In this document: positions 42,440-53,430 of the stretch, in pieces
How positions within the stretch are numbered: the stretch's first letter is position 1
How the letters are laid out: every line of letters begins with the position of its first letter
NCBI GenBank assembly: GCA_037308085.1
Contig: CP147779.1
Coordinates: 1,024,001-1,088,000, forward strand
DNA length: 64,000 bases
Origin: Promethearchaeati archaeon SRVP18_Atabeyarchaeia-1
GTDB taxonomy: Archaea; Asgardarchaeota; Atabeyarchaeia; Atabeyarchaeales; Atabeyarchaeaceae
Direction: 5' to 3'
The notes under the pieces: generated by a model
What the model was told of the DNA's origin: nothing
The model's input: the letters and a program-made list of their open reading frames with translations, nothing else
Database searches by the model: none
Translations under genes and position numbers: made by a program

Positions 42440-42874
42440 ATGGGCAAATCCCCAACCGGAATGTACGCCGCCAAAAAGATCGTGGAAAACCGAAAACACT
42501 TCAGGTGGCGCAACCGAGACTTCAAAAACAGAATGCTCCGAATCAGAGAAATGACCCCATCCGAAGGCGCACCACAATCCACCGGCATAGTCCTCGAAAA
42601 AGTCGGCCGAGAACCAAGAAAACCCAGCTCCGGAGTCAGAAAATGCGTGAGAATCCAACTCATCAAAAACGGCAGAACCGTCACAGCCTTCATCCCCCTC
42701 GACGGAGCCCTCGACTACGTAGACGAACACGACGAAGTACTTATTGAAGGCATTGGGGGCAGAAAAGGTGGATCAATGGGCGACCTGCCGGGGGTAAGAT
42801 ACCGCGTTATCAAGGTTAACGGCATCTCGATCCAGGCACTTTGGACAGGCAAGAAGGAAAAGCCCCTTAAATAG
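42440..42874 (+). CDS. rps12: 30S ribosomal protein uS12 (orphan, divergent)
   Basis: [32 protein letters not shown]; not flanked by nusA/rps7. Confidence 0.93.
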
Positions 42875-42990: not shown

Positions 42991-45402
42991 TCATCTAGAT
43001 GAGGTTTTGGAGTTTTTCAGCATGTTCTTGAGTCTTTCTTGTTTTCTCTTCTGTGGGAAGCCAATTTCGCTGTAGAAGGTTTTAATTGCTTCTTTCGCGC
43101 CTATTTGCAGAGCCCACAAGACACCGTAGCCCCCTTCCCTTTTGTAAATCTCCTTTGGGCGCTCATTGAAGCCAATCCCAAAATCGCCTGTCAGGATTCT
43201 TGCCTCCGACTCCAGGATTTGTGGGCGTATCGAGTCTAGTGTCTCTTGGATGTCTTGAGGTAGATCTTTGAACATGTAGTACTTGACGCCTTTCTTATGC
43301 AGGTCGGCTTTGCGCGTCTTTCTCTTCCATTGTTCGCTCATGATATCAAGGCGGTTCCTCTGCTCGACCGATAGATTATGAGTTCCATCTATGGCTCTCT
43401 CCAATGTTATTATTCCGCAATGTGTCGAAGGTGATCCTTCGTCACCGAAGGCTTGTACCAGCCACTCTCGTTTCATTTCAGGTGACCCTTGTCGTATAAA
43501 CGCCGGTATGTCCGGGTTTTGCAGAATGATTCTGCCAGTTACTGCCCCTGATCTCTGTAGTGTGTGACCAACGATGTCTGTTGTTGCGCGCAGTCTTGGG
43601 ATCCTACCGTCGTCGAATATTCTGTCGGTAATGTTTGGGTCGCCGAATATGTTTCTTAGTGATTCCGCGATCCTTCTTCTTTGTTCGTCGTCTTTGTTTG
43701 TGTATTCGAATCTCGGTCCTGCGCGTTTAGGTGTGTGAATTGATCCGTCTGAGTATCTTGCTGCCATGATTCTTGCTCCGTGTGGGGTTCTTAGGTTGAA
43801 GGGGAGTTTTGGGTTTTTGATTGCTCTGGCGTTTCCTATTGCTGCGGTGTGGTGGTTTGGCTCGTCGAGGTCTCTGCCGAGGTATCTAAGGATTGGGATA
43901 AGTTTGTTGGCCACCATGCCGTCCATTCGTTCGCTCAGTTGGTCGTTTAGGTATTTGATTGCGATCTGTGTTTCTCTTTTCCTGAGTTCGTTTCGGAGTT
44001 GTGTTTTTCCTCCTGCTTTGTTTATTGCTGCGTGTAGTAGTTCATGTTTGTACTCTTTGTCGAGGTAGATGGCGATTGTTTGTGGCAGTGCGTACCATGG
44101 TGTTTCGTAGGGTGGGATTGTCTTGTTTTCTGTTGGTATGTGGAGGGTTTCTTCCCCTTGCCTTGTTTTGTATCTGTAGAGGTGTAGGTTTCCTACCTTT
44201 TCTGCTTCGATGGTTGTGATCTTGTATTCTTGGTTTTGGTATTCTATTGTGATTGCTTTGCCCTCGAGTTTGAAGGTTGTTTTTTCGCGTGGTTTTGGTG
44301 GGGGGTGTGTTTTTTCGGTGAATGGTCTGGGGGAGAGGGCTATGCCATCTGTTCTCACGGTTAGAGTTTGGGCTTCTCCTCTTCTTGCCGTTGTTAGCAG
44401 CTTCTCGGTGGCGTCTTCGCTGAGTCTTATCGCTTTGTTTTCGATTTGCCCCGTAGCGAGTATTTTCCCTTGTTGTGTTTGGATGGCGATACTTGCGTAG
44501 TCTCCGTCTCTGACTTTGAGGCCGAGTTCTTCGAGTTTCTCGGTGAGCTGTATTCTTGTTTCTCCGCTAGTTGTGGTTGGTGTGACTTGGATGCCATGTG
44601 TCCAGGGGGGCTCTCCGGGTCCTCTCACGTTTAGGACATGGACATTTACTTTGTCTCCTGTCTTGATGCCTAGGTTTTCGATGTCTGCTTTCTTGATGTT
44701 TGCTCTTGTTCCCTTCACCACTGTTAGCACGGCGATGGCTTGGACGCCGTCCTTCTCGAGCAGCGCCGTTATTATGTCTCTTCGGTGGAACTCGACGTTT
44801 GTCATGGGGTCAAGCTTTAGGTAGAATGTCTGCTGGGCTTGACTGTAGTCTACTCTTGCGCAGGGGTTTCGTGTACTCTCAATAAACGCGTCGATGCTAT
44901 AGGCTGCTCCTTTCCACTTTATGGCTATGTCTTGGCTTTCGGGTGATTGGAGGCTCCTCAATGCTTGCTCCAGGTCTTTCCCGGCCATGCGTGATAGTTG
45001 CTGTAGATCCTTTAGGGCGATGTGTTCTCTGTTGCTCTCCCAGTAGAACACTTGACTCTCACTGTATCCTAGCTCATGAGCAAGCCTGTGCCTGCTGAGG
45101 CCTAGCTCTGTGCGCCACACTCTAACTAATTCACCTGCACCAAGCACCCACGCATCGTGAACCCTTGTCTTGCTCAGCTCGGTTGTATTGGTTGCTTGTT
45201 CTGCTGCCGCCCTGTCGGTGTTGCTAAGGTGCTCTGTATTGGTCCTTGCAGAAGCGTCACCGTCGCCTCTTGTCTTGGTGCTTTCCGTTGTCTCCCCCTG
45301 CCCATGCGTGTCCACGTCATTGGGTTGTTGTTGTGGCTGCTGCTCTGATGCTTGTGATGGTTCTCGCCCGCATTCCGCTATTTTCGTGCCCTCGTTCTCC
45401 AT
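42991..45402 (-). CDS. Multidomain protein: low-complexity N-terminus, XRE HTH, AbrB-like segments, two-motif LAGLIDADG
   Basis: WRTELGLSRHRLAHELGYSESQVFYWES; LGIKTGDKV; IMAARYSDG and WLVQAFGDEG; FYSEIGFPQKRKQ. Confidence 0.78.
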   Translation of the reverse strand: MENEGTKIAECGREPSQASEQQPQQQPNDVDTHGQGETTESTKTRGDGDASARTNTEHLSNTDRAAAEQATNTTELSKTRVHDAWVLGAGELVRVWRTELGLSRHRLAHELGYSESQVFYWESNREHIALKDLQQLSRMAGKDLEQALRSLQSPESQDIAIKWKGAAYSIDAFIESTRNPCARVDYSQAQQTFYLKLDPMTNVEFHRRDIITALLEKDGVQAIAVLTVVKGTRANIKKADIENLGIKTGDKVNVHVLNVRGPGEPPWTHGIQVTPTTTSGETRIQLTEKLEELGLKVRDGDYASIAIQTQQGKILATGQIENKAIRLSEDATEKLLTTARRGEAQTLTVRTDGIALSPRPFTEKTHPPPKPREKTTFKLEGKAITIEYQNQEYKITTIEAEKVGNLHLYRYKTRQGEETLHIPTENKTIPPYETPWYALPQTIAIYLDKEYKHELLHAAINKAGGKTQLRNELRKRETQIAIKYLNDQLSERMDGMVANKLIPILRYLGRDLDEPNHHTAAIGNARAIKNPKLPFNLRTPHGARIMAARYSDGSIHTPKRAGPRFEYTNKDDEQRRRIAESLRNIFGDPNITDRIFDDGRIPRLRATTDIVGHTLQRSGAVTGRIILQNPDIPAFIRQGSPEMKREWLVQAFGDEGSPSTHCGIITLERAIDGTHNLSVEQRNRLDIMSEQWKRKTRKADLHKKGVKYYMFKDLPQDIQETLDSIRPQILESEARILTGDFGIGFNERPKEIYKREGGYGVLWALQIGAKEAIKTFYSEIGFPQKRKQERLKNMLKNSKTSSR

Positions 45403-45744
45403 AACAGACTACTATGTTTGATGGTATTTTAACTCGCCATAGGGCTCCTCTTCTCCCTCAATGCATAGGCACATAGAATTCCGCGTTTCGCCGCATTTCC
45501 CCGTGACTGTCACGAACCCAGTCGAGTGTTGTCTTCCTTTTGATGTCTTGTTGGCCACCAGGAATCTTGGTCTCATCTTGCAGGGACTGCTCGCAGGCTG
45601 GGTCTGACTTCTCGTGGCTTTGCCCGAAAAGCGTGTTCAAGCATCGGCTGTGATTCGGATTGCTGCTGGCAAGGTTTTTTATCCTGTTTAAATACAGTCA
45701 CTAGTTTGCATCAACCCATCATTTTTCGGTGAGCGAGTGGACAA

Positions 45745-48700
45745 ATGGCAATAAGATTCGTCGGGGGTTCTCCTCCAAGCGATGAGGAGACTTTTGGGAA
45801 GCTGCGCCCGTACGTGGCTGGGTGGTTCAAGGAGAAGTTTGGGGAGATGACTCCCCCGCAGAAGTACGCTATTCCTCTGATCCAGAGGAACGAGAATACG
45901 CTGGTGTTTTCCAGCACGGGGTCTGGCAAGACCTTGGCCGCCTTCCTGTCCATGATAGACAAGCTGTTCTCGATGGGTGAGAGCGGTGAGTTAGAGGAAA
46001 CTGTTTATGTCCTCTATGTTAGTCCCCTCAGGGCGCTTAACAATGATATCAAGCGGAACTTGATGGTTCCACTTGAAGGTATAAGGGAGACTTCGCGCAG
46101 GGCAAATGTGGAGTTGCCCATGATAAATGTGGCTGTGAGGACTGGGGATACGCCGCAGGCTGAGCGGAGCAGAATGCTTCGCCACCCGCCTCATATACTG
46201 ATAACGACTCCTGAGACGCTCTCTATAGTCCTTAACTCGCCCAAGTTCAGCGAGCGCCTAAAGACGATTAAGTGGGTGATTGTCGACGAGATCCACGAGT
46301 TGTGTGACTCCAAGAGAGGAGTTCACTTGTCTCTTAGCCTTGAGCGGCTCCAACACCTTATTGGCGGTGACAAGGAGTTTGTCCGAGTCGGTTGCAGTGC
46401 GACTCAGGCCCCGGTGGATGAGATAGCCAAATTCCTCGTGGGGTACCGGGATGATGGTTCTTTTAGAGACTGTAACATAGTTGATGTCTACTCTACGAAG
46501 TCGCTTGACATTGGCGTTATCACGCCAGTCTCAAATCTCGCGTATGCAAGCTACGACTCTGCAACAGACAACATGTATGAGCTTCTGAAAAAGCAGATTG
46601 ACTCGCACACTACGACACTCGTTTTTACGAATACTCGTAGCGGAACGGAGCGTATCGCCTTCAGGCTCAAGGAGTTGTATGGCGATGAATCCGTGGATCA
46701 GCTGGCAGCCCACCATGGCAGTCTGAGCCGTGATACGAGGCTCGATGTGGAAGAGCGCCTGAAGAAGGGGCAGCTGAAAGCGGCTGTCAGCTCAACTTCC
46801 CTTGAACTCGGTATAGACATCGGGTACATAGACTTGGTCTGCCAGATTGGTAGTCCCAAAAGCGTCGCTAAGGGCTTACAGAGAATCGGGAGGGCAGGGC
46901 ATGCGCTTCATGAGACTTCCATCGGTCGCCTGCTCGTTTTCGACCTTGATGACCTTGTCGAATGCACAGTATTGGTTAAGTCTGCCTACGAAGGGAAGAT
47001 CGACAGGGTTGCGATACCGAGAAACTGCTTGGATGTATTGGCCCAGCACTTGGTGGGTATGAGCATCGAATCGAAGTGGACTCCAGATGATGCATTGAGA
47101 CTGATTAGGCGTTCCTATTGTTATCATGAATTGCCTAAAGAGGATTTCATGGGTGTAATCAGGTATCTGGCAGGGGAGCATGTTAACCTCGAAGAACGCG
47201 GGGTGTACAGGAAGTTATGGTTTGACGAGGATCAGCAGGTTTTTGGTAGGAAGAGAGGCGCACGGATGATATACTTCCTGAACATTGGGACTATCCCCGA
47301 AGAATCGAATTACAGGGTTCTCCTTGAGGAGTACAGGAATCCGTTGGGGCAACTGTCGGAGAGCTTCGTTGAGCGGCTTCAGCCGGGCGACATTTTCGTG
47401 CTAGGTGGCAGAGCGTATGAATTCAGAAGAACAAGTGGCATGAAAGTCTATGTGAGGCCCGCCTTTGGTCGGCGCCCGACGGTTCCATCATGGACTGGGG
47501 AAATGCTTCCAAGGAGTTTCGACTTGTCATGCGAGATCGGCAAGTTCCGGCAGGTAATAGCTGGTAGGATTAAGAAGGAAGGTTTGGATGCTACGAAGAA
47601 GTGGCTTCTCGAAGAATACCGGGTTGACGAGAGATCTGCAGACAGCATGATCGTGTACTTCAGGAACCAGCTTGCGATCACGGGAACAGTGCCAACAGAC
47701 AAGAGGATCATGATTGAAGGGTACATCGACAAGAGAGGGAGACTCAACATAATCTTCCACAGCGTCTATGGTCGTCGGGTGAATGACGCACTGAGCAGGG
47801 CATACGCCTATGCCATAACTAGGGTCTCAAAGGTGAATGTGGGCACAGCGATTCTGGACGATGGATTCGTCATCACTCTTCCAGCAGGAAGAATGATCGA
47901 CTTGAACAGGGTTCCGCTACTCGTAAACCCTGAGAATGTCGAAGACTTCATCCGCAAGGCAATTAGAAAGACGGAGCTTTTCAAACAGAGATTCAGACAC
48001 TGCGCAGTAAGAAGCTTCATGGTTCTAAGGATGTACAAAGGGTGGGAGATATCTGTAAGCAGACAGCAGACCAGGGCGATAAAGGTCCTTGACCTGCTTG
48101 AGGGAATGGAGGACTTCCCCGTCGTAAAAGAGACTTACCGAGAGATACTTGAAGACGACATGGATCTTCCAAACGCAAAGAACGTTATCAACGGGCTAAA
48201 GAGCGGAGATATCGAGTCTAGGGTTCTTCCGCTCACTGACGTGCCTTCCCCATTCTCACACGGTCTTATCCTCGTTGGGGCTGAAGACGTGGTGTTAATG
48301 GAGGATCGCGAAGCATTATTGAGAGAGTTGCATCGGCAAGTCCTTTCAAGGGTAATAGGCGAAGCTGGGGAAGTGCTCTTCTCGGAGGAGACCGTTCAGG
48401 CTTTGTATAACCAGAGGCAGCACTTAACTCCTGAAACACAAGGGAAAGAAAAGGAAGACATAGTACGAATTCTGCATGATATAGGACCGGCGGAGATATT
48501 CCGAGACACATATCCCACGATCTTGAACAGAATGGCAGTTGATCCTGAGACCGTTAGCCAATGGGCTGAGGAGCTCGTAATGGAGGGTCGAGTAATTATC
48601 ATTAGAACTCCAAAAGGGGAGAGCTTCGGAGTTACGACAGACGACTTCGTAACCTACTATCATGTTTTCAGGAGTGCGCCAGGCGAGCTCGATGAGCTTG

Positions 48701-51700
48701 AGAAAAACATGCTGAAGGCGTTGGAAGTCAAACCTCTCAAAGCCAGCGAACTAATGGTATCGCTGAATTCCGGTTACCCCCATGTTAGGAGAGCATTGCG
48801 AAGACTGGAAAGGGCCATGCTCGTAGTGAGATCAAAGTATTCGCCGAAGGGATCCGCAAGGGAGCAAGCTCTTGAGACAACGTGGAGTCTCACGTCGAGG
48901 CATCTCCCGAGCCAGGTTTTTGCCAGTGTGGAACATGCCGATCCTGAGGAGGAGAAAGAGAAGGCCGTAAAGCATTTCCTTAGGTCCTTTGGTCCATGTG
49001 TCGCGTCGGAAGTGGCCACTCACCTCAACATGTCAGAAGAAGAAGCAGAAAAGATCTTCAACCGCCTAGAGAGGATGGGCGATGTACTGAGTGGATATTT
49101 CATACCCTCAAAGCCGCCTCGCCAGTACCTCCTTGCCGAAGACAGGGAACTACTAAAGCAGATAGAGAAGAGTCGAGAACCCATTCGTTTCCCAGAGGCA
49201 GTGGTGACCCAGCTAGTCTTGGAGAAGCAACATCTAACTCCCACCACGAGAGGCAAGGGAGAAGAAGACATAGTCACAATGATCGCCGAGCTGGGACCAA
49301 TACAGTCGCACAGAGCTTTGTACCACAGGATCGAGAAATTCGATCTAGATACACTGAGAAGGCTTTGGGCTTCCGAGAAGAAGCTAATGTTGGGCAGATT
49401 CACGGAGAGAGGTCTATCATATATCCGTACAAGTGACTTGCCGATCTACGTAGCGCTGAGAGAAGCTAACGGAGTATTGCTCTCAGACCTTGACAGACTT
49501 GTATTGGGCATCATAGAAAAGGAGAATCCTATAACCAAAGGCAGAATAACGGCATTGACCGGGCTTGAAAAACCCACGGTCGAGGAGAGTCTGGAAAGGC
49601 TTGAAGAATCTCTGCTGGTTTTGAGGACCGTCCCTTACGACATGGAGCCCGAGGCCCAGCAAGTAATCCTGTACGAGCCTGCGGGTAACTATACTTCGCA
49701 GTTTCAGAAACTCTCAAGAAGTGAGGCGCTTAGGACTCTTATCCAGCGCACCATTGAAGGACATGGGATGATCACAATACAGGGCATAATATCATTAACT
49801 AATCTTCCATACGACGAAGTCGAAAGCACCCTGTCGGCACTCAGGAGAGAGAGACTGATTGTCTCAGGGCAATTCATTGAAGGCATACCAATAGAAACCT
49901 ACCTCGTCGCGAAGGATCTCCAAAGGTTGAAGGAACTCGGCAGCGAGTTTGCTGTCGGCGGGACGAAGGAGGGTGAGATCCCATTTGAGGGCAGGATCAT
50001 GGTGGATGTCCTCGGCAATTTGGACCCCTATACTTGGAGGGTTGCCCAGCAACTGTCAGACCTCTATGGAAGTGCTTTTCTTAATCCGATAGTGGTTGAC
50101 GGCGTGCTTGTAGGGGCAGCCGACCTTCATGTTACCCAGGACCTATTGCACGTAGCTGACCTAAAGGTGTCTGAACTTCTGCTCGAAAAACCTGAGCTGT
50201 TGGAAAAAATCGCGAAACGATTCATCGAAATCGCTTCATATTACGGGCTTATGGCTGCGGAGGTCGAATTTGTCTGGGGGCAGCCGGCCGTTACAGAGAA
50301 AAACGAGAAACTGGTCAAGGTTTTCACCGAACTCGGCTATGAGATCGTTGGCGACAGGCTCTGTTGGGGAGAAACGCCTTCAGAACTATTCGACGAGCAG
50401 GTTGTCAGGGTATTTCAGTTTAAGAAGCAACACGTGGATCCAGAAACCCGGGGTAGAACAAGAGACGATGTCTATCGGATAATGCGGGACATCGGTCCCA
50501 TATGGACCCCCTGGGAGGAGAAGCTTAGCATTAGAGTGGAGGATTTGAGAAGAGAATGGGTTGAAGAATTGTTGAAGAAGGATAGGGTACTAGTCGAAGA
50601 TACTCTGCTTGGGTCAAAACCGATGCTTCTTCCGGTGAAAGACTGGCCGACTTACTGGTGGGCGTGCAAGACACCTGTGAAGCTTAGCTTAGATGCGGTG
50701 AAACTACTGAAAGTAATAAGAGAGAATGGTCCGATTTCGAAAAAGTCGCTCATTAGGAAGTCGCTGATGCACCAGTTAGACGTAGAACACCTTCTGTCGA
50801 TTCTGTGCCAAATGAGACTGATCACGAACATAGGAAACTCGACAACTGCGGGAATATGGGTCACTATTGACCAATGGCTTCCGGCAACGGTGAAGCTGGA
50901 GGACTATGTTGAGCCACATGAGGCGAGAAGGAGGATCATCCTCAGGCTTCTTAGAAGCTTGGGTCCATTAACGGTATCGCAGTTACGTGAGCTTACGGCG
51001 CTTCACTCAAGGCAGGTAAGACTAGTTCTCTCGGAACTCAGAGATCAAGGAATCGTGGGACTTGGTAGGTTCCTGAGATCTCCCAGGACGCAGATACAGT
51101 TTGTCGCTCTTGAGGACTTGGAGGAACTGCATTCCATCTCATCAATGGTGAAGGACGGAGACTATGGGAGAACGACCCGTGCTTTTACGGTACCGCCGGG
51201 CGATCCACTCTACTACGCCCTGAAGGACGAAATCAAAAGCACCTTCAGAACGGGATGGTGCTATACAGTGGTTCTAAATGACGATCTGGTCGCCGCCTTC
51301 AAATCAAAGGGAGCAAAGAAGAAACACTTCATAATAACTGATCTATTAATTCAAGGCAAGCAGGTCGAGAGGAAAGAAGTCATCCTAAAGATCATCGGCC
51401 AAATAGATGAAACTGCTAGATGCGTCGGATCCCTTGACATCGAAGTCAAGAGTATCAACGAGAAACCCGTGACCTATGAAGGCAACCAAAGTATTGTGGA
51501 GATCTTCAAGTCTGCGGGCTACAAGGCTGGCGGACTAGTTCTCTACAAACCTTTCTCAGTATCTATTCAGCCAAGCGGCAAGGAGGTTTTCGCCGAGGAT
51601 GTTTGCGTAGAGTTCTTGATGCGTAGGCAACATCTCTCTCCGCAGTACAAGGGTAGAGGAAAGGATGAAATACTCAAGGTTCTGCACGACATAGGACGTG

Positions 51701-52782
51701 TGGAATGGTCTGACTCGATTGCAGTCCGCATAGAGGAATTCAACCCCAACGATCTCGATGAACTGAAGTGGAAAGATCAAAAGATTGTTCACGGCAGATT
51801 TCTGAATGAGAACCTGACGCAAGTCCCAACCGACGAGCTACTCGAATACTACTATGCTTCGAGGTCCCCCTCATTCGTTCTAGGATACGACGATCAACGG
51901 ATTCTTGAACTGCTAACCAAGTCTGGGCCTCTAGAAGAAAAGGAGATAACGGCAAGAACTGGTCTAGATCCGGAGACTGTACGTGGATCCCTGGAAAACG
52001 TGGAGAAAGCCGCTAGAATAGTTAGAGTCAGAAAAGGTGACTCGCACTATACAACTGATAGCTGGTTCTACGATGTCATCGACCACTACCTGCCAAGCGG
52101 TTCATCACAATTCGAGAGCACGAGTCCGAAGGACGCGAGAAAGAAGATCATACTGAAGTTTCTTGCAGCAAACGGCCCTGTGAGCTTAAGGCAAATCGAG
52201 GAATGGTCACACATGGAGTTAGCTGAGATCAAATCAGTTCTATCAGAGCTTGAGGCAGAAGGAAGAATCTCCTCAAACGTCTATGTCGAAGGGGTCGCAG
52301 GCAGAAGATATGTTAGAAAGGAGGACCTGCCAGAACTGAGATCACTAGAAGAGCTGTACCTCAGCCAGAAGCTCACCAACGGGGCGCCCTACTATGTCAC
52401 ACTTCCGAACTACGACCCATTAATCAAAACATGGAAAGACGAGCTGCTCAGAGTTTTCTCAATTGGTCTAATAGAACTTGGAGCAGACTACTATATGTTG
52501 ACACTTAGATCAGGAAAACCGGTGGCTGCTATACAAGTCCACTTTGAGGTAAACACCATGAGGATACACGACATGGAGCTGCTCGACTCGCTTGACCTCA
52601 GAATTGTGCAAGACGTGATCAAGGACATAGAGAAAACCGCGCATGACTCAAGAAAAATGGAGTTGCAGATCGAGCGCATAAGCGGTAGAGGAGCCCAGGA
52701 TAAGCTGAATAGGCAGAGAGTCGAGACATTTCTTGAGAATGGTTATCGACTTAATGAAGGAATCCTGCGTAAGAAACTATAA
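45745..52782 (+). CDS. lhr: Giant Lhr helicase with four C-terminal AlkZ/HTH_42-like modules
   Basis: TGSGKT, SPLRALNND, DEIH, SAT, HHGSLS, TSLELGID, QRIGRAGH, GTIP; repeated QHLxP..G..DI...DIGP units. Confidence 0.93.
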   Translation: MAIRFVGGSPPSDEETFGKLRPYVAGWFKEKFGEMTPPQKYAIPLIQRNENTLVFSSTGSGKTLAAFLSMIDKLFSMGESGELEETVYVLYVSPLRALNNDIKRNLMVPLEGIRETSRRANVELPMINVAVRTGDTPQAERSRMLRHPPHILITTPETLSIVLNSPKFSERLKTIKWVIVDEIHELCDSKRGVHLSLSLERLQHLIGGDKEFVRVGCSATQAPVDEIAKFLVGYRDDGSFRDCNIVDVYSTKSLDIGVITPVSNLAYASYDSATDNMYELLKKQIDSHTTTLVFTNTRSGTERIAFRLKELYGDESVDQLAAHHGSLSRDTRLDVEERLKKGQLKAAVSSTSLELGIDIGYIDLVCQIGSPKSVAKGLQRIGRAGHALHETSIGRLLVFDLDDLVECTVLVKSAYEGKIDRVAIPRNCLDVLAQHLVGMSIESKWTPDDALRLIRRSYCYHELPKEDFMGVIRYLAGEHVNLEERGVYRKLWFDEDQQVFGRKRGARMIYFLNIGTIPEESNYRVLLEEYRNPLGQLSESFVERLQPGDIFVLGGRAYEFRRTSGMKVYVRPAFGRRPTVPSWTGEMLPRSFDLSCEIGKFRQVIAGRIKKEGLDATKKWLLEEYRVDERSADSMIVYFRNQLAITGTVPTDKRIMIEGYIDKRGRLNIIFHSVYGRRVNDALSRAYAYAITRVSKVNVGTAILDDGFVITLPAGRMIDLNRVPLLVNPENVEDFIRKAIRKTELFKQRFRHCAVRSFMVLRMYKGWEISVSRQQTRAIKVLDLLEGMEDFPVVKETYREILEDDMDLPNAKNVINGLKSGDIESRVLPLTDVPSPFSHGLILVGAEDVVLMEDREALLRELHRQVLSRVIGEAGEVLFSEETVQALYNQRQHLTPETQGKEKEDIVRILHDIGPAEIFRDTYPTILNRMAVDPETVSQWAEELVMEGRVIIIRTPKGESFGVTTDDFVTYYHVFRSAPGELDELEKNMLKALEVKPLKASELMVSLNSGYPHVRRALRRLERAMLVVRSKYSPKGSAREQALETTWSLTSRHLPSQVFASVEHADPEEEKEKAVKHFLRSFGPCVASEVATHLNMSEEEAEKIFNRLERMGDVLSGYFIPSKPPRQYLLAEDRELLKQIEKSREPIRFPEAVVTQLVLEKQHLTPTTRGKGEEDIVTMIAELGPIQSHRALYHRIEKFDLDTLRRLWASEKKLMLGRFTERGLSYIRTSDLPIYVALREANGVLLSDLDRLVLGIIEKENPITKGRITALTGLEKPTVEESLERLEESLLVLRTVPYDMEPEAQQVILYEPAGNYTSQFQKLSRSEALRTLIQRTIEGHGMITIQGIISLTNLPYDEVESTLSALRRERLIVSGQFIEGIPIETYLVAKDLQRLKELGSEFAVGGTKEGEIPFEGRIMVDVLGNLDPYTWRVAQQLSDLYGSAFLNPIVVDGVLVGAADLHVTQDLLHVADLKVSELLLEKPELLEKIAKRFIEIASYYGLMAAEVEFVWGQPAVTEKNEKLVKVFTELGYEIVGDRLCWGETPSELFDEQVVRVFQFKKQHVDPETRGRTRDDVYRIMRDIGPIWTPWEEKLSIRVEDLRREWVEELLKKDRVLVEDTLLGSKPMLLPVKDWPTYWWACKTPVKLSLDAVKLLKVIRENGPISKKSLIRKSLMHQLDVEHLLSILCQMRLITNIGNSTTAGIWVTIDQWLPATVKLEDYVEPHEARRRIILRLLRSLGPLTVSQLRELTALHSRQVRLVLSELRDQGIVGLGRFLRSPRTQIQFVALEDLEELHSISSMVKDGDYGRTTRAFTVPPGDPLYYALKDEIKSTFRTGWCYTVVLNDDLVAAFKSKGAKKKHFIITDLLIQGKQVERKEVILKIIGQIDETARCVGSLDIEVKSINEKPVTYEGNQSIVEIFKSAGYKAGGLVLYKPFSVSIQPSGKEVFAEDVCVEFLMRRQHLSPQYKGRGKDEILKVLHDIGRVEWSDSIAVRIEEFNPNDLDELKWKDQKIVHGRFLNENLTQVPTDELLEYYYASRSPSFVLGYDDQRILELLTKSGPLEEKEITARTGLDPETVRGSLENVEKAARIVRVRKGDSHYTTDSWFYDVIDHYLPSGSSQFESTSPKDARKKIILKFLAANGPVSLRQIEEWSHMELAEIKSVLSELEAEGRISSNVYVEGVAGRRYVRKEDLPELRSLEELYLSQKLTNGAPYYVTLPNYDPLIKTWKDELLRVFSIGLIELGADYYMLTLRSGKPVAAIQVHFEVNTMRIHDMELLDSLDLRIVQDVIKDIEKTAHDSRKMELQIERISGRGAQDKLNRQRVETFLENGYRLNEGILRKKL
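48376..52779 (+). repeat. Four protein-level repeats starting at 48376, 49186, 50386 and 51586
   Basis: LFSEE..QHLTPETQG / RFPEA..QHLTPTTRG / LFDEQ..QHVDPETRG / VFAED..QHLSPQYKG. Confidence 0.85.
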
Positions 52783-52785
52783 ACG

Positions 52786-53430
52786 GTGGAGGAGATGTCG
52801 CGGGCAATGTCAATCTGGTTGAAATATAGAGAGGAGATGGCTCAAGTAAAGAACTACCTCAAGACAACTGCTCCTCATGGAGATGACTCGTTCTTCCCCT
52901 ACAGCGATCCCGCCTACAAGTGGGAGCACACCCTGATGGTTCTGAACAGCGGCCTGCTACTCGCCAAAGAAGAGAGGGCCAACATTGACGTCGTAGCCCT
53001 TGGAGCGATTTTCCATGACGTATGCTACTACACTGCAAGCTACGAAGAGCATGGGCACGAAGGATCCAAGTACGCCACGGAGTATATGAGGAAGAAGGGC
53101 TACCCGAATGAGCTTATTGCGAACGTATCGTACGCCGTAGGTGTTCATATTGGAGAAATGAATCCCAAGACTATAGAAGCTAAAATAATCCAGGATGCGG
53201 ACACACTTGACAAGGTTGGGGCGGTCGGCGTCGCCCTGATACTATTGAACGCGGGCGCAGGAAAGTTGCTCTTTCTCGACGCGATCAACAAGTACAAGAC
53301 TGAATATGTGAAGAAACTCGACTTCATGGTCAACTCTATGTGGACAAAGAAGGCTCGCCAGATAATGGCAGAGCGGACGAACTTTCTCACCGCCTACTTC
53401 AAGCAGCTTGAAAGCGAATTAACAAGCTGA
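52786..53430 (+). CDS. HD-domain phosphohydrolase
   Basis: EH, FHD, EHG, QDADTLD; 3 nt after the lhr stop. Confidence 0.9.
   Translation: MEEMSRAMSIWLKYREEMAQVKNYLKTTAPHGDDSFFPYSDPAYKWEHTLMVLNSGLLLAKEERANIDVVALGAIFHDVCYYTASYEEHGHEGSKYATEYMRKKGYPNELIANVSYAVGVHIGEMNPKTIEAKIIQDADTLDKVGAVGVALILLNAGAGKLLFLDAINKYKTEYVKKLDFMVNSMWTKKARQIMAERTNFLTAYFKQLESELTS

What the first reader, a model, noticed from the sequence alone, without database searches (positions are those of the whole stretch)
45745..52782. 2345-aa Lhr with four tandem AlkZ-like modules, three on an exact 400-aa period
Seen: an ~875-aa Lhr core, then repeats at residues 878, 1148, 1548 and 1948. The first (270 aa) lacks the DP-containing beta region present in the others (LDPY, GDPL, YDPL). 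Established: archaeal Lhr is usually core-sized, and long bacterial Lhr has an AlkZ-like winged-helix C-terminal domain that drives tetramerisation. Inference: a single-chain mimic of that oligomer, or a multi-lesion-sensing helicase-glycosylase. Only repeat 2 keeps an AlkZ-like GPIQ. A coupled HD hydrolase follows.
Basis: partly seen in the sequence, partly recalled or inferred. Interest (0 to 1): 0.72.

Follow-up and report, generated by a model that had tools for sequence, protein, structure and literature searches.

The report
Asgard Lhr helicase with four AlkZ-like modules
A real, conserved 2345-residue DNA-repair helicase of an Asgard archaeon carries four tandem copies of an AlkZ-type DNA-glycosylase fold, the longest member of a previously undescribed series of archaeal Lhr proteins that add such modules one by one, though most copies lack the known catalytic residues.

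Summary
Window 45745-52782 (+) is one 2345-aa ORF: an intact Lhr core (1-877), then four homologous modules starting at 878, 1148, 1548 and 1948. Each module alone passes Pfam's AlkZ-like cut-off. R1 is a 270-aa, three-winged-helix module without the C-terminal domain.

An AlphaFold model of R4 matches YcaQ/AlkX, AlkZ and the MsmLhr C-terminal domain (CTD) at Z 25-29. Six orthologues from independent assemblies keep the same spacing, and every module is under purifying selection.

- R1 and R2 are the positional equivalents of the bacterial Lhr-CTD. R3 and R4 are additions.
- Three-module Lhr proteins (1700-1950 aa) are common in Asgard archaea. The four-module form is one 50%-identity cluster.
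- One Asgard family (29 of 29 genomes) supplies two extra modules as a separate downstream gene.
- The AlkZ (H/Q)-aliphatic-(Q/D) motif is absent from R1-R3. R2 has an invariant Q-(S/T)-H. R4, not R2, carries a motif resembling the active AZL2 variant.
- The single-chain oligomer idea remains untested.
- HD gene adjacency reflects family-wide synteny.

Verdict: a new variant of a known kind, of moderate interest.

The parts
45690..45697 (+). TTTAAATA, a possible archaeal TATA box about 48 nt upstream of the ATG
   Evidence: Read directly from the sequence. Not tested further.
45745..52782 (+). Whole Lhr gene, 2345 codons plus stop
   Evidence: It is the only DEAD_assoc match in the 2.81-Mb genome, and it holds all four of the genome's AlkZ-like matches.
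45745..48375 (+). Lhr core (aa 1-877): RecA1, RecA2, winged helix and Domain 4. Motif I GSGKT is at aa 59-63, motif II DEIH at 181-184, motif VI QRIGRAGH at 379-386.
   Evidence: Pfam. NCBIfam NF010338 scores 1199.9 bits against a cut-off of 849. Motif positions. The core is 32.6% identical to E. coli Lhr over residues 22-951.
48376..49185 (+). Module R1 (aa 878-1147): three winged helices plus a linker helix, with no C-terminal domain. It is the positional orthologue of the first, short module of other long Lhr proteins.
   Evidence: AlkZ-like 44.3 bits. It aligns to repeat-profile positions 1-256 only. It falls in the first-module clade, support 98/83.
49186..50385 (+). Module R2 (aa 1148-1547): a full module. 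It is the positional orthologue of the AlkZ-like subdomain of the bacterial Lhr-CTD. Q1187-S-H1189 sits at the catalytic-motif position. The tail GDRLCWGETPSE (1536-1547) is invariant.
   Evidence: Second-module clade, support 90/83. The tail resembles the E. coli Lhr C-terminus ...GLDWG. Its C-terminal domain is the most conserved part of the CTD, 81% mean identity among orthologues.
50386..51585 (+). Module R3 (aa 1548-1947): a full module. The motif position reads W-T-P and varies among orthologues.
   Evidence: Its best partner is R4, and its place in the tree is unresolved.
51586..52779 (+). Module R4 (aa 1948-2345): a full module. E1987-W-S-D1990 sits at the catalytic-motif position, and orthologues read H/Q-W-S/T-D. 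Its nearest relative outside the family is a free-standing 386-aa protein.
   Evidence: AF2 model: pLDDT 90.9, pTM 0.88. Foldseek and VIA-align hits to 9ZD6, 5UUJ and 7LHL. Motif. P0022 scores 156 bits and is a genuine stand-alone gene.
52786..53430 (+). HD-domain phosphohydrolase gene downstream. The true start is probably about 21 nt further in.
   Evidence: Pfam HD E 8.5e-12. NCBIfam PRK10119-like, below its cut-off. An HD gene follows the orthologous Lhr in G012 and on the contigs of P0007 and P0006, after gaps of 68-118 bp.

Best explanation
This is the single Lhr-type DNA-repair helicase of an Asgard archaeon. Its C-terminal domain has grown by stepwise addition of AlkZ/HTH_42-type modules.

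The core is an intact SF2 motor. By homology it should be a 3'-to-5' translocase on single-stranded DNA that acts at forks or RNA:DNA hybrids. R1 plus R2 correspond to the bacterial Lhr-CTD (a short winged-helix subdomain plus an AlkZ-like subdomain). R3 and R4 are extra full modules, and the four-module form is confined to this family. Together with the core's winged helix, the chain carries 13 winged-helix domains.

Each full module is a C-shaped three-winged-helix clamp plus a C-terminal alpha/beta domain, the shape in which YcaQ/AlkX holds duplex DNA. The known glycosylase motif is missing from R1 and R3 and incomplete in R2. Most modules are therefore inferred to be non-catalytic binders of DNA or of damaged DNA, or structural units. 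R4 is the only plausible active glycosylase module, because it has an AZL2-like motif.

Shown here: architecture, homology, fold, positional orthology of R1 and R2, purifying selection, and distribution.
Inferred: DNA binding, the division of labour among modules, and a role in repair of alkylation, crosslink or uracil damage.
For: - Architecture and repeat statistics.
- Core: NF010338 at 1199.9 bits, with motifs I, II and VI present.
- Homology to AlkZ: the module profile hits AlkZ 5UUJ at E 1.7e-21 and the YcaQ-like 9ZD6 at E 5.9e-19.
- Fold: R4 model pLDDT 90.9. Z 28.6 to 9ZD6 (340 aligned, rmsd 3.1), Z 27.0 to 5UUJ, and Z 25.5 to MsmLhr-CTD residues 1081-1503.
- E. coli Lhr resolves into core, short module (~913-1100) and full module (~1110-1538) with the same profile. 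This fits WH2-3 plus WH4-6/barrel in PMC8053096.
- Tree: R1 groups with first modules (98/83) and R2 with second modules (90/83).
- Selection: dN is 0.18-0.25 in the modules and 0.09-0.10 in the core, with dS saturated. All four modules are therefore under purifying selection.
- Motif reading: set against the published (H/Q)-aliphatic-(Q/D) and AZL2 H-aliphatic-(S/T)-(D/E) motifs. AZL2 excises 7mG (PMC9040887).
- Graded series: 41 representative clusters have tails of 811-1070 aa after a full core, mostly with three module matches, against one cluster with a 1469-aa tail.
Against: - No biochemical data exist for any long archaeal Lhr.
- The motif register is tentative. The modules have five fewer residues than AlkZ between the motif glycine and the conserved Arg downstream of the motif.
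- The window's own R4 has Glu where AZL2 has His or Gln.
[quoted passage not shown] Absence of the AlkZ motif therefore does not prove a module inactive. In R2 the aligned position is Cys-1540, but an invariant Asp-1537 lies three residues upstream.
- R2's Q-(S/T)-H is invariant in six orthologues, which could mark a variant active site.
Confidence: 0.55

Rival explanations
1. Single-chain pseudo-oligomer. The four modules pack against one another into a compact body that replaces the CTD homotetramer of bacterial Lhr, so the protein works as a monomer with one motor. The extra modules are structural and do not read DNA.
For: - In MsmLhr the CTD nucleates a tetramer and occludes the AlkZ-like cleft (PMC8053096).
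- The inter-module junctions are short and strongly conserved: the R2 tail and linker are invariant, and the R3-R4 junction is nearly so.
- The three-module model has pTM 0.58 at 1198 aa, above what three independent thirds would be expected to give.
- In family f4, two further modules come as a separate protein encoded directly downstream of Lhr in 26 genomes where both genes lie on one contig. The 2-module gene is present in 29 of 29 genomes. This fits module-module assembly in trans.
Against: - Stoichiometry differs. This protein has one short and three full modules on one core. The bacterial assembly has four short, four full and four cores.
- The five AF2 models scatter from pLDDT 64.6 to 79.1. 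Neither the predicted aligned error (PAE) nor the coordinates were available, so no inter-module contact was seen.
- Purifying selection on whole modules does not discriminate between the two readings.
Confidence: 0.25
2. Multi-lesion helicase-glycosylase. Several modules are active glycosylases with different lesion specificities, delivered by one motor.
For: - Each module keeps the AlkZ-like fold family above the Pfam cut-off and is under purifying selection.
- Streptomyces genomes carry 2-5 AZL paralogues with different specificities (PMC9040887).
- E. coli Lhr-CTD is an active uracil-DNA glycosylase without QxQ (PMC10953399).
Against: - The (H/Q)-aliphatic-(Q/D) motif is absent from R1 (E-I-F) and R3 (W-T-P, variable among orthologues) and incomplete in R2 (Q-S/T-H). 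Only R4 resembles a known active variant.
- R1 lacks the C-terminal domain altogether.
- The position aligned to the E. coli catalytic Asp-1536 is Cys, Tyr and Arg in R2, R3 and R4.
Confidence: 0.12
3. The winged-helix arrays bind RNA, RNA:DNA hybrids or partner proteins. The CTD would then be a scaffold or substrate selector, for example at R-loops, and not a damage reader.
For: - Characterised Lhr helicases prefer RNA:DNA hybrids (cited in PMC8053096 and PMC9040887).
- Purified MsmLhr-CTD and E. coli Lhr-CTD did not gel-shift DNA.
- Lower-ranked Foldseek matches are generic winged-helix arrays such as RPC62, TFIIIC and SelB, the last of which binds RNA.
Against: Those matches are weak (TM below 0.25). 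The matches to DNA-bound YcaQ/AlkX and to AlkZ cover the whole module at Z 27-29.
Confidence: 0.07
4. Artefact: a misassembled or wrongly fused reading frame.
For: None found.
Against: - The same 4-module ORF of 2344-2352 aa occurs in a second closed genome (G012) and on independent metagenome contigs from JGI, Logan and NCBI, at 67-82% identity.
- There are no internal stops and no DNA repeats.
- dN is far below the saturated dS in every module.
Confidence: 0.01

Closest known systems
Bacterial Lhr with HTH_42 C-terminal domain (bLhr-HTH: M. smegmatis Lhr 1507 aa, PDB 5V9X and 7LHL; E. coli Lhr 1538 aa)
   Same: Same Lhr core, 32.6% identical to E. coli Lhr over about 930 residues. The CTD begins in the same way, with a short winged-helix module followed by a full AlkZ-like module. 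R4 matches MsmLhr-CTD residues 1081-1503 at Z 25.5. The R2 tail ...LCWG resembles the E. coli C-terminus ...LDWG. Like the bacterial CTD, it lacks a complete QxQ motif.
   Different: Two additional full modules, so the tail is 1469 aa against about 650. R1 has three winged helices, not two. The position aligned to E. coli Asp-1536 is Cys-1540. Oligomeric state is unknown. The host is archaeal.
AlkZ / YcaQ (AlkX) / AZL2 stand-alone interstrand-crosslink and alkylpurine DNA glycosylases (HTH_42, PF06224; PDB 5UUJ, 9ZD6)
   Same: Three tandem winged helices plus a C-terminal domain in a C-shape. The module profile hits 5UUJ at E 1.7e-21. The R4 model matches at Z 27-29. The R4 motif (E/H/Q)-(W/L)-(S/T)-D resembles AZL2 H-aliphatic-(S/T)-(D/E).
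   Different: Fused in fourfold tandem to a helicase. QxQ and QxD are absent. There are five fewer residues than in AlkZ between the motif glycine and the next conserved Arg. Each module has about 45 extra C-terminal residues (beta-alpha-beta-beta) that are shared with Lhr-CTDs and that the match to YcaQ/AlkZ does not cover.
Three-module archaeal Lhr proteins (about 1700-1950 aa; e.g. P0016 1895 aa, P0020 1907 aa, P0010 1803 aa), found in databases but not found described in the papers searched
   Same: Core, short module, full module and third module. R1 and R2 are positional orthologues of their first and second modules.
   Different: One module fewer: their tails reach at most 1070 aa against 1469 aa here. 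In family f4 two more modules are supplied by a separate 780-aa protein encoded directly downstream.
Archaeal aLhr2 'Lhr-core' helicases (M. thermautotrophicus, S. solfataricus Hel112, T. barophilus aLhr2) and the Methanomassiliicoccales aLhr2 with an HTH_42 extension (Hajj et al. 2021, PMC8301817)
   Same: Same core family. That paper already noted an HTH_42 extension in a few archaeal aLhr2 proteins.
   Different: Those proteins are core-sized or carry a single detected HTH_42 domain. Tandem multi-module forms and Asgard long forms are not described there.

Membership tests
Lhr helicase (Lhr-core) | Domain order DEAD, Helicase_C, Lhr winged helix, Domain 4 (DEAD_assoc) | tested here: met
   Pfam: 101.6, 57.3, 127.1 and 193.5 bits, all above the cut-offs and in the right order. 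NCBIfam NF010338 equivalog: 1199.9 bits against a cut-off of 849.
Lhr helicase (Lhr-core) | Intact ATPase and helicase motifs I, II and VI | tested here: met
   GSGKT at 59-63, DEIH at 181-184, QRIGRAGH at 379-386.
Lhr helicase (Lhr-core) | ATP-dependent 3'-to-5' translocation on ssDNA, with unwinding of RNA:DNA or forked DNA | not testable with these tools
   Needs biochemistry. Inferred from homology only.
HTH_42 / AlkZ-like superfamily (PF06224) | Sequence match above the Pfam gathering score | tested here: met
   R1 44.3, R2 35.4, R3 58.4 and R4 51.2 bits, each scanned alone, against a 25.9-bit cut-off.
HTH_42 / AlkZ-like superfamily (PF06224) | Fold: three tandem winged helices plus a C-terminal domain forming a C-shape | tested here: met
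   Met for R4: Z 28.6, 27.0 and 25.5 to 9ZD6, 5UUJ and 7LHL. R2 and R3 show the same secondary-structure pattern in the 1198-aa model. R1 has only the three winged helices and lacks the C-terminal domain.
AlkZ/YcaQ DNA glycosylases (catalytically active HTH_42) | Catalytic motif (H/Q)-aliphatic-(Q/D) after the first-winged-helix glycine | tested here: not met
   R1 reads E-I-F, R2 Q-(S/T)-H, R3 W-T-P and R4 E-W-S. Motif definition from PMC9040887.
AZL2 subfamily of HTH_42 glycosylases | Variant motif H-aliphatic-(S/T)-(D/E) | tested here: inconclusive
   R4 reads E-W-S-D in the window, E-L-S-D in one orthologue, H-W-S-D in two, Q-W-T-D in one and Q-W-S-D in one. The middle residue is aromatic in five of the six, the first residue is Glu here, and the register depends on where a 5-residue length difference from AlkZ falls.
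Bacterial Lhr-CTD (bLhr-HTH type) | CTD made of a short winged-helix subdomain followed by one AlkZ-like subdomain | tested here: met
   R1 and R2 fill these positions. The E. coli Lhr CTD resolves into the same two modules. First- and second-module clades have support 98/83 and 90/83. The window protein then continues with R3 and R4, which the bacterial type lacks.
Bacterial Lhr-CTD (bLhr-HTH type) | Uracil-DNA glycosylase active-site Asp (E. coli Asp-1536) | tested here: inconclusive
   The aligned residues are Cys-1540 (R2), Tyr (R3) and Arg (R4). An invariant Asp-1537 lies three residues upstream in R2, and an acidic residue recurs at that spot in four of the five second-position modules compared.
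Bacterial Lhr-CTD (bLhr-HTH type) | CTD-driven homotetramer | not testable with these tools
   Needs a measurement of the oligomeric state in solution, or a structure.

The most novel reading that the evidence does not exclude
AlkZ-like modules work as a fixed-number assembly of about four to five per Lhr motor. This family supplies them in cis (one short and three full modules). Family f4, apparently Heimdallarchaeaceae, supplies them partly in trans (a three-module Lhr plus an obligatory two-module partner). Together they would form a monomeric, pseudo-oligomeric equivalent of the bacterial Lhr tetramer body, with one catalytic module (R4, AZL2-like) and the others acting as non-catalytic duplex clamps. 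If so, this would be a natural 'concatenated oligomer' that makes the unexplained role of the Lhr-CTD directly testable.
Probability: 0.2. Interest if true: 0.65.

Novelty: new variant of a known kind. Interest (0 to 1): 0.5.

Why it matters
The function of the Lhr C-terminal domain is unsettled. It tetramerises in mycobacteria with its AlkZ-like cleft occluded. It is reported to be a uracil-DNA glycosylase in E. coli. It lacks the AlkZ catalytic motif in both.

Asgard archaea offer a natural series with two, three and four modules in one chain, and three modules plus two in a partner protein. In this series the number of modules and their catalytic status vary while the motor stays the same. 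That allows direct tests of three questions:
- Do the modules bind DNA damage?
- Do they assemble with each other?
- Do cis-linked modules replace oligomerisation?

The series also extends HTH_42 glycosylase-like proteins, reported as very rare in archaea (12 sequences in PMC9040887), to many Asgard lineages.

Tried and rejected
1. Direct phmmer of the 1476-aa tail against PDB sequences found only generic winged-helix matches. A 43-sequence module profile was needed to reach AlkZ.
2. Complex prediction with R3 and R4 as separate chains returned 'no answer' (score 0.00, controls not run). This is neither for nor against inter-module packing.
3. Origin of R3 and R4 by fusion with the f4-type two-module partner: not supported. 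The partner's modules score at most 72 bits against R3 or R4, while R4 scores 156 bits against the stand-alone P0022. In the tree they do not group with R3 or R4. Whether R4 arose by duplication of R3 or by capture of a stand-alone gene is unresolved, because that part of the tree is a polytomy.
4. The 2513-aa Lhr of G029 looked like a five-module candidate. It is a two-short-module Lhr with two inteins in the core.
5. A three-module Lhr (P0010) and a member of the two-module-protein cluster share a longest-contig length, but the two-module gene is not among the genes flanking that Lhr. Adjacency is shown only for family f4.
6. dN/dS ratios could not be computed because dS is saturated. Only the contrast between low dN and saturated dS is used.
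7. Naming the organism below 'Asgard' failed. The only named relative is 'Promethearchaeati archaeon LC30', and a literature search for its accession prefix found nothing.
8. No paper describing tandem multi-module archaeal Lhr was found. The library does not cover all journals.
Full report
**1. What is there**

Window 45745..52782 (+) is a single uninterrupted ORF of 2345 codons. The first 877 residues are a complete Lhr core:
- Pfam finds DEAD, Helicase_C, WH_Lhr and DEAD_assoc, in that order.
- NCBIfam equivalog NF010338 scores 1199.9 bits against a cut-off of 849.
- Motifs GSGKT, DEIH and QRIGRAGH are present.
- The core is 32.6% identical to E. coli Lhr over about 930 residues.

The window lies in a 2.81-Mb single-contig genome. 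This ORF is the genome's only Lhr and contains all four of its AlkZ-like matches. The closest named relative is a 'Promethearchaeati archaeon', that is, an Asgard archaeon.

**2. The repeats are real**

Residues 878-1147 (R1), 1148-1547 (R2), 1548-1947 (R3) and 1948-2345 (R4) align to each other in register. Identity is 24-28%, with BLASTP E-values from 4e-13 to 4e-36, and none of them matches the core. Scanned alone, each passes Pfam's AlkZ-like gathering score: 44, 35, 58 and 51 bits against 25.9.

The N-terminal module motif starts at residues 891, 1161, 1561 and 1961, a spacing of 270, 400 and 400. All six orthologues keep that spacing. The internal DP motifs are 393 and 404 residues apart, so the 'exact period' holds only at the module boundaries.

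R1 stops after the third winged helix and the linker helix, and lacks the C-terminal ~130-aa domain. There is no repeat at the DNA level. The architecture recurs in a second closed genome and in independent JGI, Logan and NCBI assemblies at 67-82% identity. dN is 0.18-0.25 in every module, against 0.09-0.10 in the core, with synonymous sites saturated. All four modules are therefore maintained by selection.

**3. The modules are AlkZ-like in sequence and fold**

A 43-sequence module profile hits AlkZ (5UUJ) at E 1.7e-21 and a YcaQ-type protein (9ZD6) at E 5.9e-19. An AlphaFold2 model of R4 has pLDDT 90.9 and pTM 0.88. Its matches are:
- 9ZD6, AlkX/YcaQ bound to DNA: Z 28.6, 340 residues aligned, rmsd 3.1.
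- 5UUJ, AlkZ: Z 27.0.
- MsmLhr-CTD residues 1081-1503: Z 25.5, 362 residues aligned.

A 1198-residue model of R2-R4 repeats the same secondary-structure pattern three times, with pLDDT 79.1 and pTM 0.58. With three winged helices per module and one in the core, the chain has 13 winged-helix domains.

**4. Place in a series**

The repeat profile splits the E. coli Lhr CTD into a short module (~913-1100) and a full module (~1110-1538). This matches the published WH2-WH3 plus WH4-6/barrel layout (PMC8053096).

An exhaustive profile search of 1.84 billion representative proteins found 481 hits. Among the best 150, 48 have a full core:
- 41 have tails of 811-1070 aa, mostly three modules at 1670-1946 aa total.
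- Exactly one 50%-identity cluster has a 1469-aa tail with four modules, and it is this family.

In 301 genomes of the phylum, 204 carry an Lhr Domain 4. Most of the listed frames are 850-980 aa. Whole families carry long forms: f4 at about 1911-1941 aa, f13 at about 1640-1800 aa, and f1 (this one) at about 2350 aa. A 2513-aa outlier is a two-short-module Lhr with two inteins.

In a module tree, R1 groups with first-position modules (support 98/83) and R2 with second-position modules (90/83). R3, R4, third-position modules and stand-alone proteins form an unresolved group. R4's best match outside the family is a genuine stand-alone 386-aa gene.

**5. Extra modules supplied in trans**

In family f4 the three-module Lhr is followed, with no gap in the locus read in full (L009, G026), by a 779-aa gene made of two full modules. 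That gene was found in 29 of 29 f4 genomes and in none of the other 272 at E 1e-20 or better. Wherever both genes lie on one contig (26 genomes), it starts 3.22-3.24 kb from the Domain 4 match, which is immediately downstream of Lhr. NCBI names for that protein cluster point to Heimdallarchaeota and Heimdallarchaeaceae. The number of modules per helicase therefore appears to be under selection in more than one lineage, in cis here and in trans there.

**6. Catalytic residues**

Active HTH_42 glycosylases carry (H/Q)-aliphatic-(Q/D). The AZL2 clade carries H-aliphatic-(S/T)-(D/E) and excises 7mG (PMC9040887). Anchored on the preceding helix and glycine, the modules read as follows:

| Module | Motif position | Conservation in six orthologues |
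|---|---|---|
| R1 | E-I-F | E and F conserved |
| R2 | Q-(S/T)-H | invariant |
| R3 | W-T-P | variable |
| R4 | E-W-S-D here; H-W-S-D, Q-W-T-D, Q-W-S-D or E-L-S-D elsewhere | S/T-D conserved |

No module has the canonical motif. R4, not R2, resembles a known active variant. The register is tentative, because the modules have five fewer residues than AlkZ between the motif glycine and the next conserved Arg.

E. coli's catalytic Asp-1536 for uracil excision (PMC10953399) aligns to Cys-1540 in R2, Tyr in R3 and Arg in R4. An invariant Asp-1537 lies three residues upstream, within the invariant R2 tail GDRLCWGETPSE. The C-terminal domain of R2 is the most conserved part of the CTD, at 81% mean identity.

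**7. Most likely mechanism**

The Lhr motor translocates on single-stranded DNA at stalled forks or hybrids (inferred from characterised homologues). Its tail of C-shaped winged-helix modules engages duplex DNA or damaged DNA, or the modules engage each other. Most modules are non-catalytic, with R4 the one plausible glycosylase.

The pseudo-oligomer reading is open. The short, conserved junctions, the pTM of 0.58 and the f4 partner protein are compatible with it, but no contact was observed. The multi-glycosylase reading is disfavoured by the motif analysis, though E. coli Lhr's non-canonical activity means it cannot be excluded.

**8. Context**

The HD gene follows Lhr in all orthologous loci examined, along with S12 upstream and an AMP-binding gene downstream. 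That is general synteny among close relatives. Other Lhr families have different downstream genes. HD orthologues are 207-208 aa, so the GTG at 52786 is probably not the true start, and tight translational coupling is doubtful.

**9. Novelty**

The papers found describe bacterial Lhr-CTDs, core-sized archaeal Lhr, and a single HTH_42 extension in Methanomassiliicoccales aLhr2 (PMC8301817). None describes tandem multi-module archaeal Lhr or the f4 partner gene. This is a new variant of a known kind: real, conserved and experimentally useful, but an extension of a series and not a new principle.

Noticed in passing
L009:1444-3783 (-) next to L009:3784-9507 (-); family f4 genomes: In one Asgard family (29 of 29 genomes; NCBI names point to Heimdallarchaeaceae), a three-module Lhr is directly followed by a ~780-aa gene made of two full AlkZ-like modules. 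NCBI annotates members of that cluster as 'hypothetical protein'. It is a likely obligate partner of Lhr.
   Followed up: partly
window 52387-52779 (R4 residues 2215-2345; model residues 268-398): The C-terminal 'barrel' domain of the module matches small GNAT acetyltransferases over their whole length (Z 10-12, about 120 residues aligned, rmsd about 2.9). Only R4 has an RxxGxG/A-like stretch (R-I-S-G-R-G-A, aa 2311-2317) where GNATs bind acetyl-CoA. R2, R3 and E. coli Lhr lack it, so this may be a shared fold only.
   Followed up: partly
L011:690-8231 (G029:C9): A 2513-aa Asgard Lhr carries two inteins (Intein_splicing and LAGLIDADG_3), one in each RecA domain, plus two short winged-helix-only modules.
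   Followed up: yes
window 42991-45402 (-): An 803-aa protein with an N-terminal HTH_3 domain and no other recognised family sits between the S12 gene (42440-42874) and Lhr. It is absent from that position in the P0007 and P0006 loci and present in G012. The surrounding region has a strong AT skew of -0.41.
   Followed up: no
window 50353-50385 and 51550-51600: The inter-module junctions are short and unusually conserved. GDRLCWGETPSE is invariant, and QPSGKEVFAE is nearly so, in six orthologues at about 70% overall module identity.
   Followed up: partly
L013:5114-6274: A stand-alone 386-aa AlkZ-like gene, the closest non-family relative of R4, lies among methyltransferase and acetyltransferase genes with no Lhr nearby. 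It too lacks the QxQ motif, reading S-W-M.
   Followed up: partly
L019:1-538 and L020:48-305: Small GTPase genes (Arf/Ras/Roc) lie a few kb upstream of the orthologous Lhr loci, as is typical of Asgard genomes.
   Followed up: no
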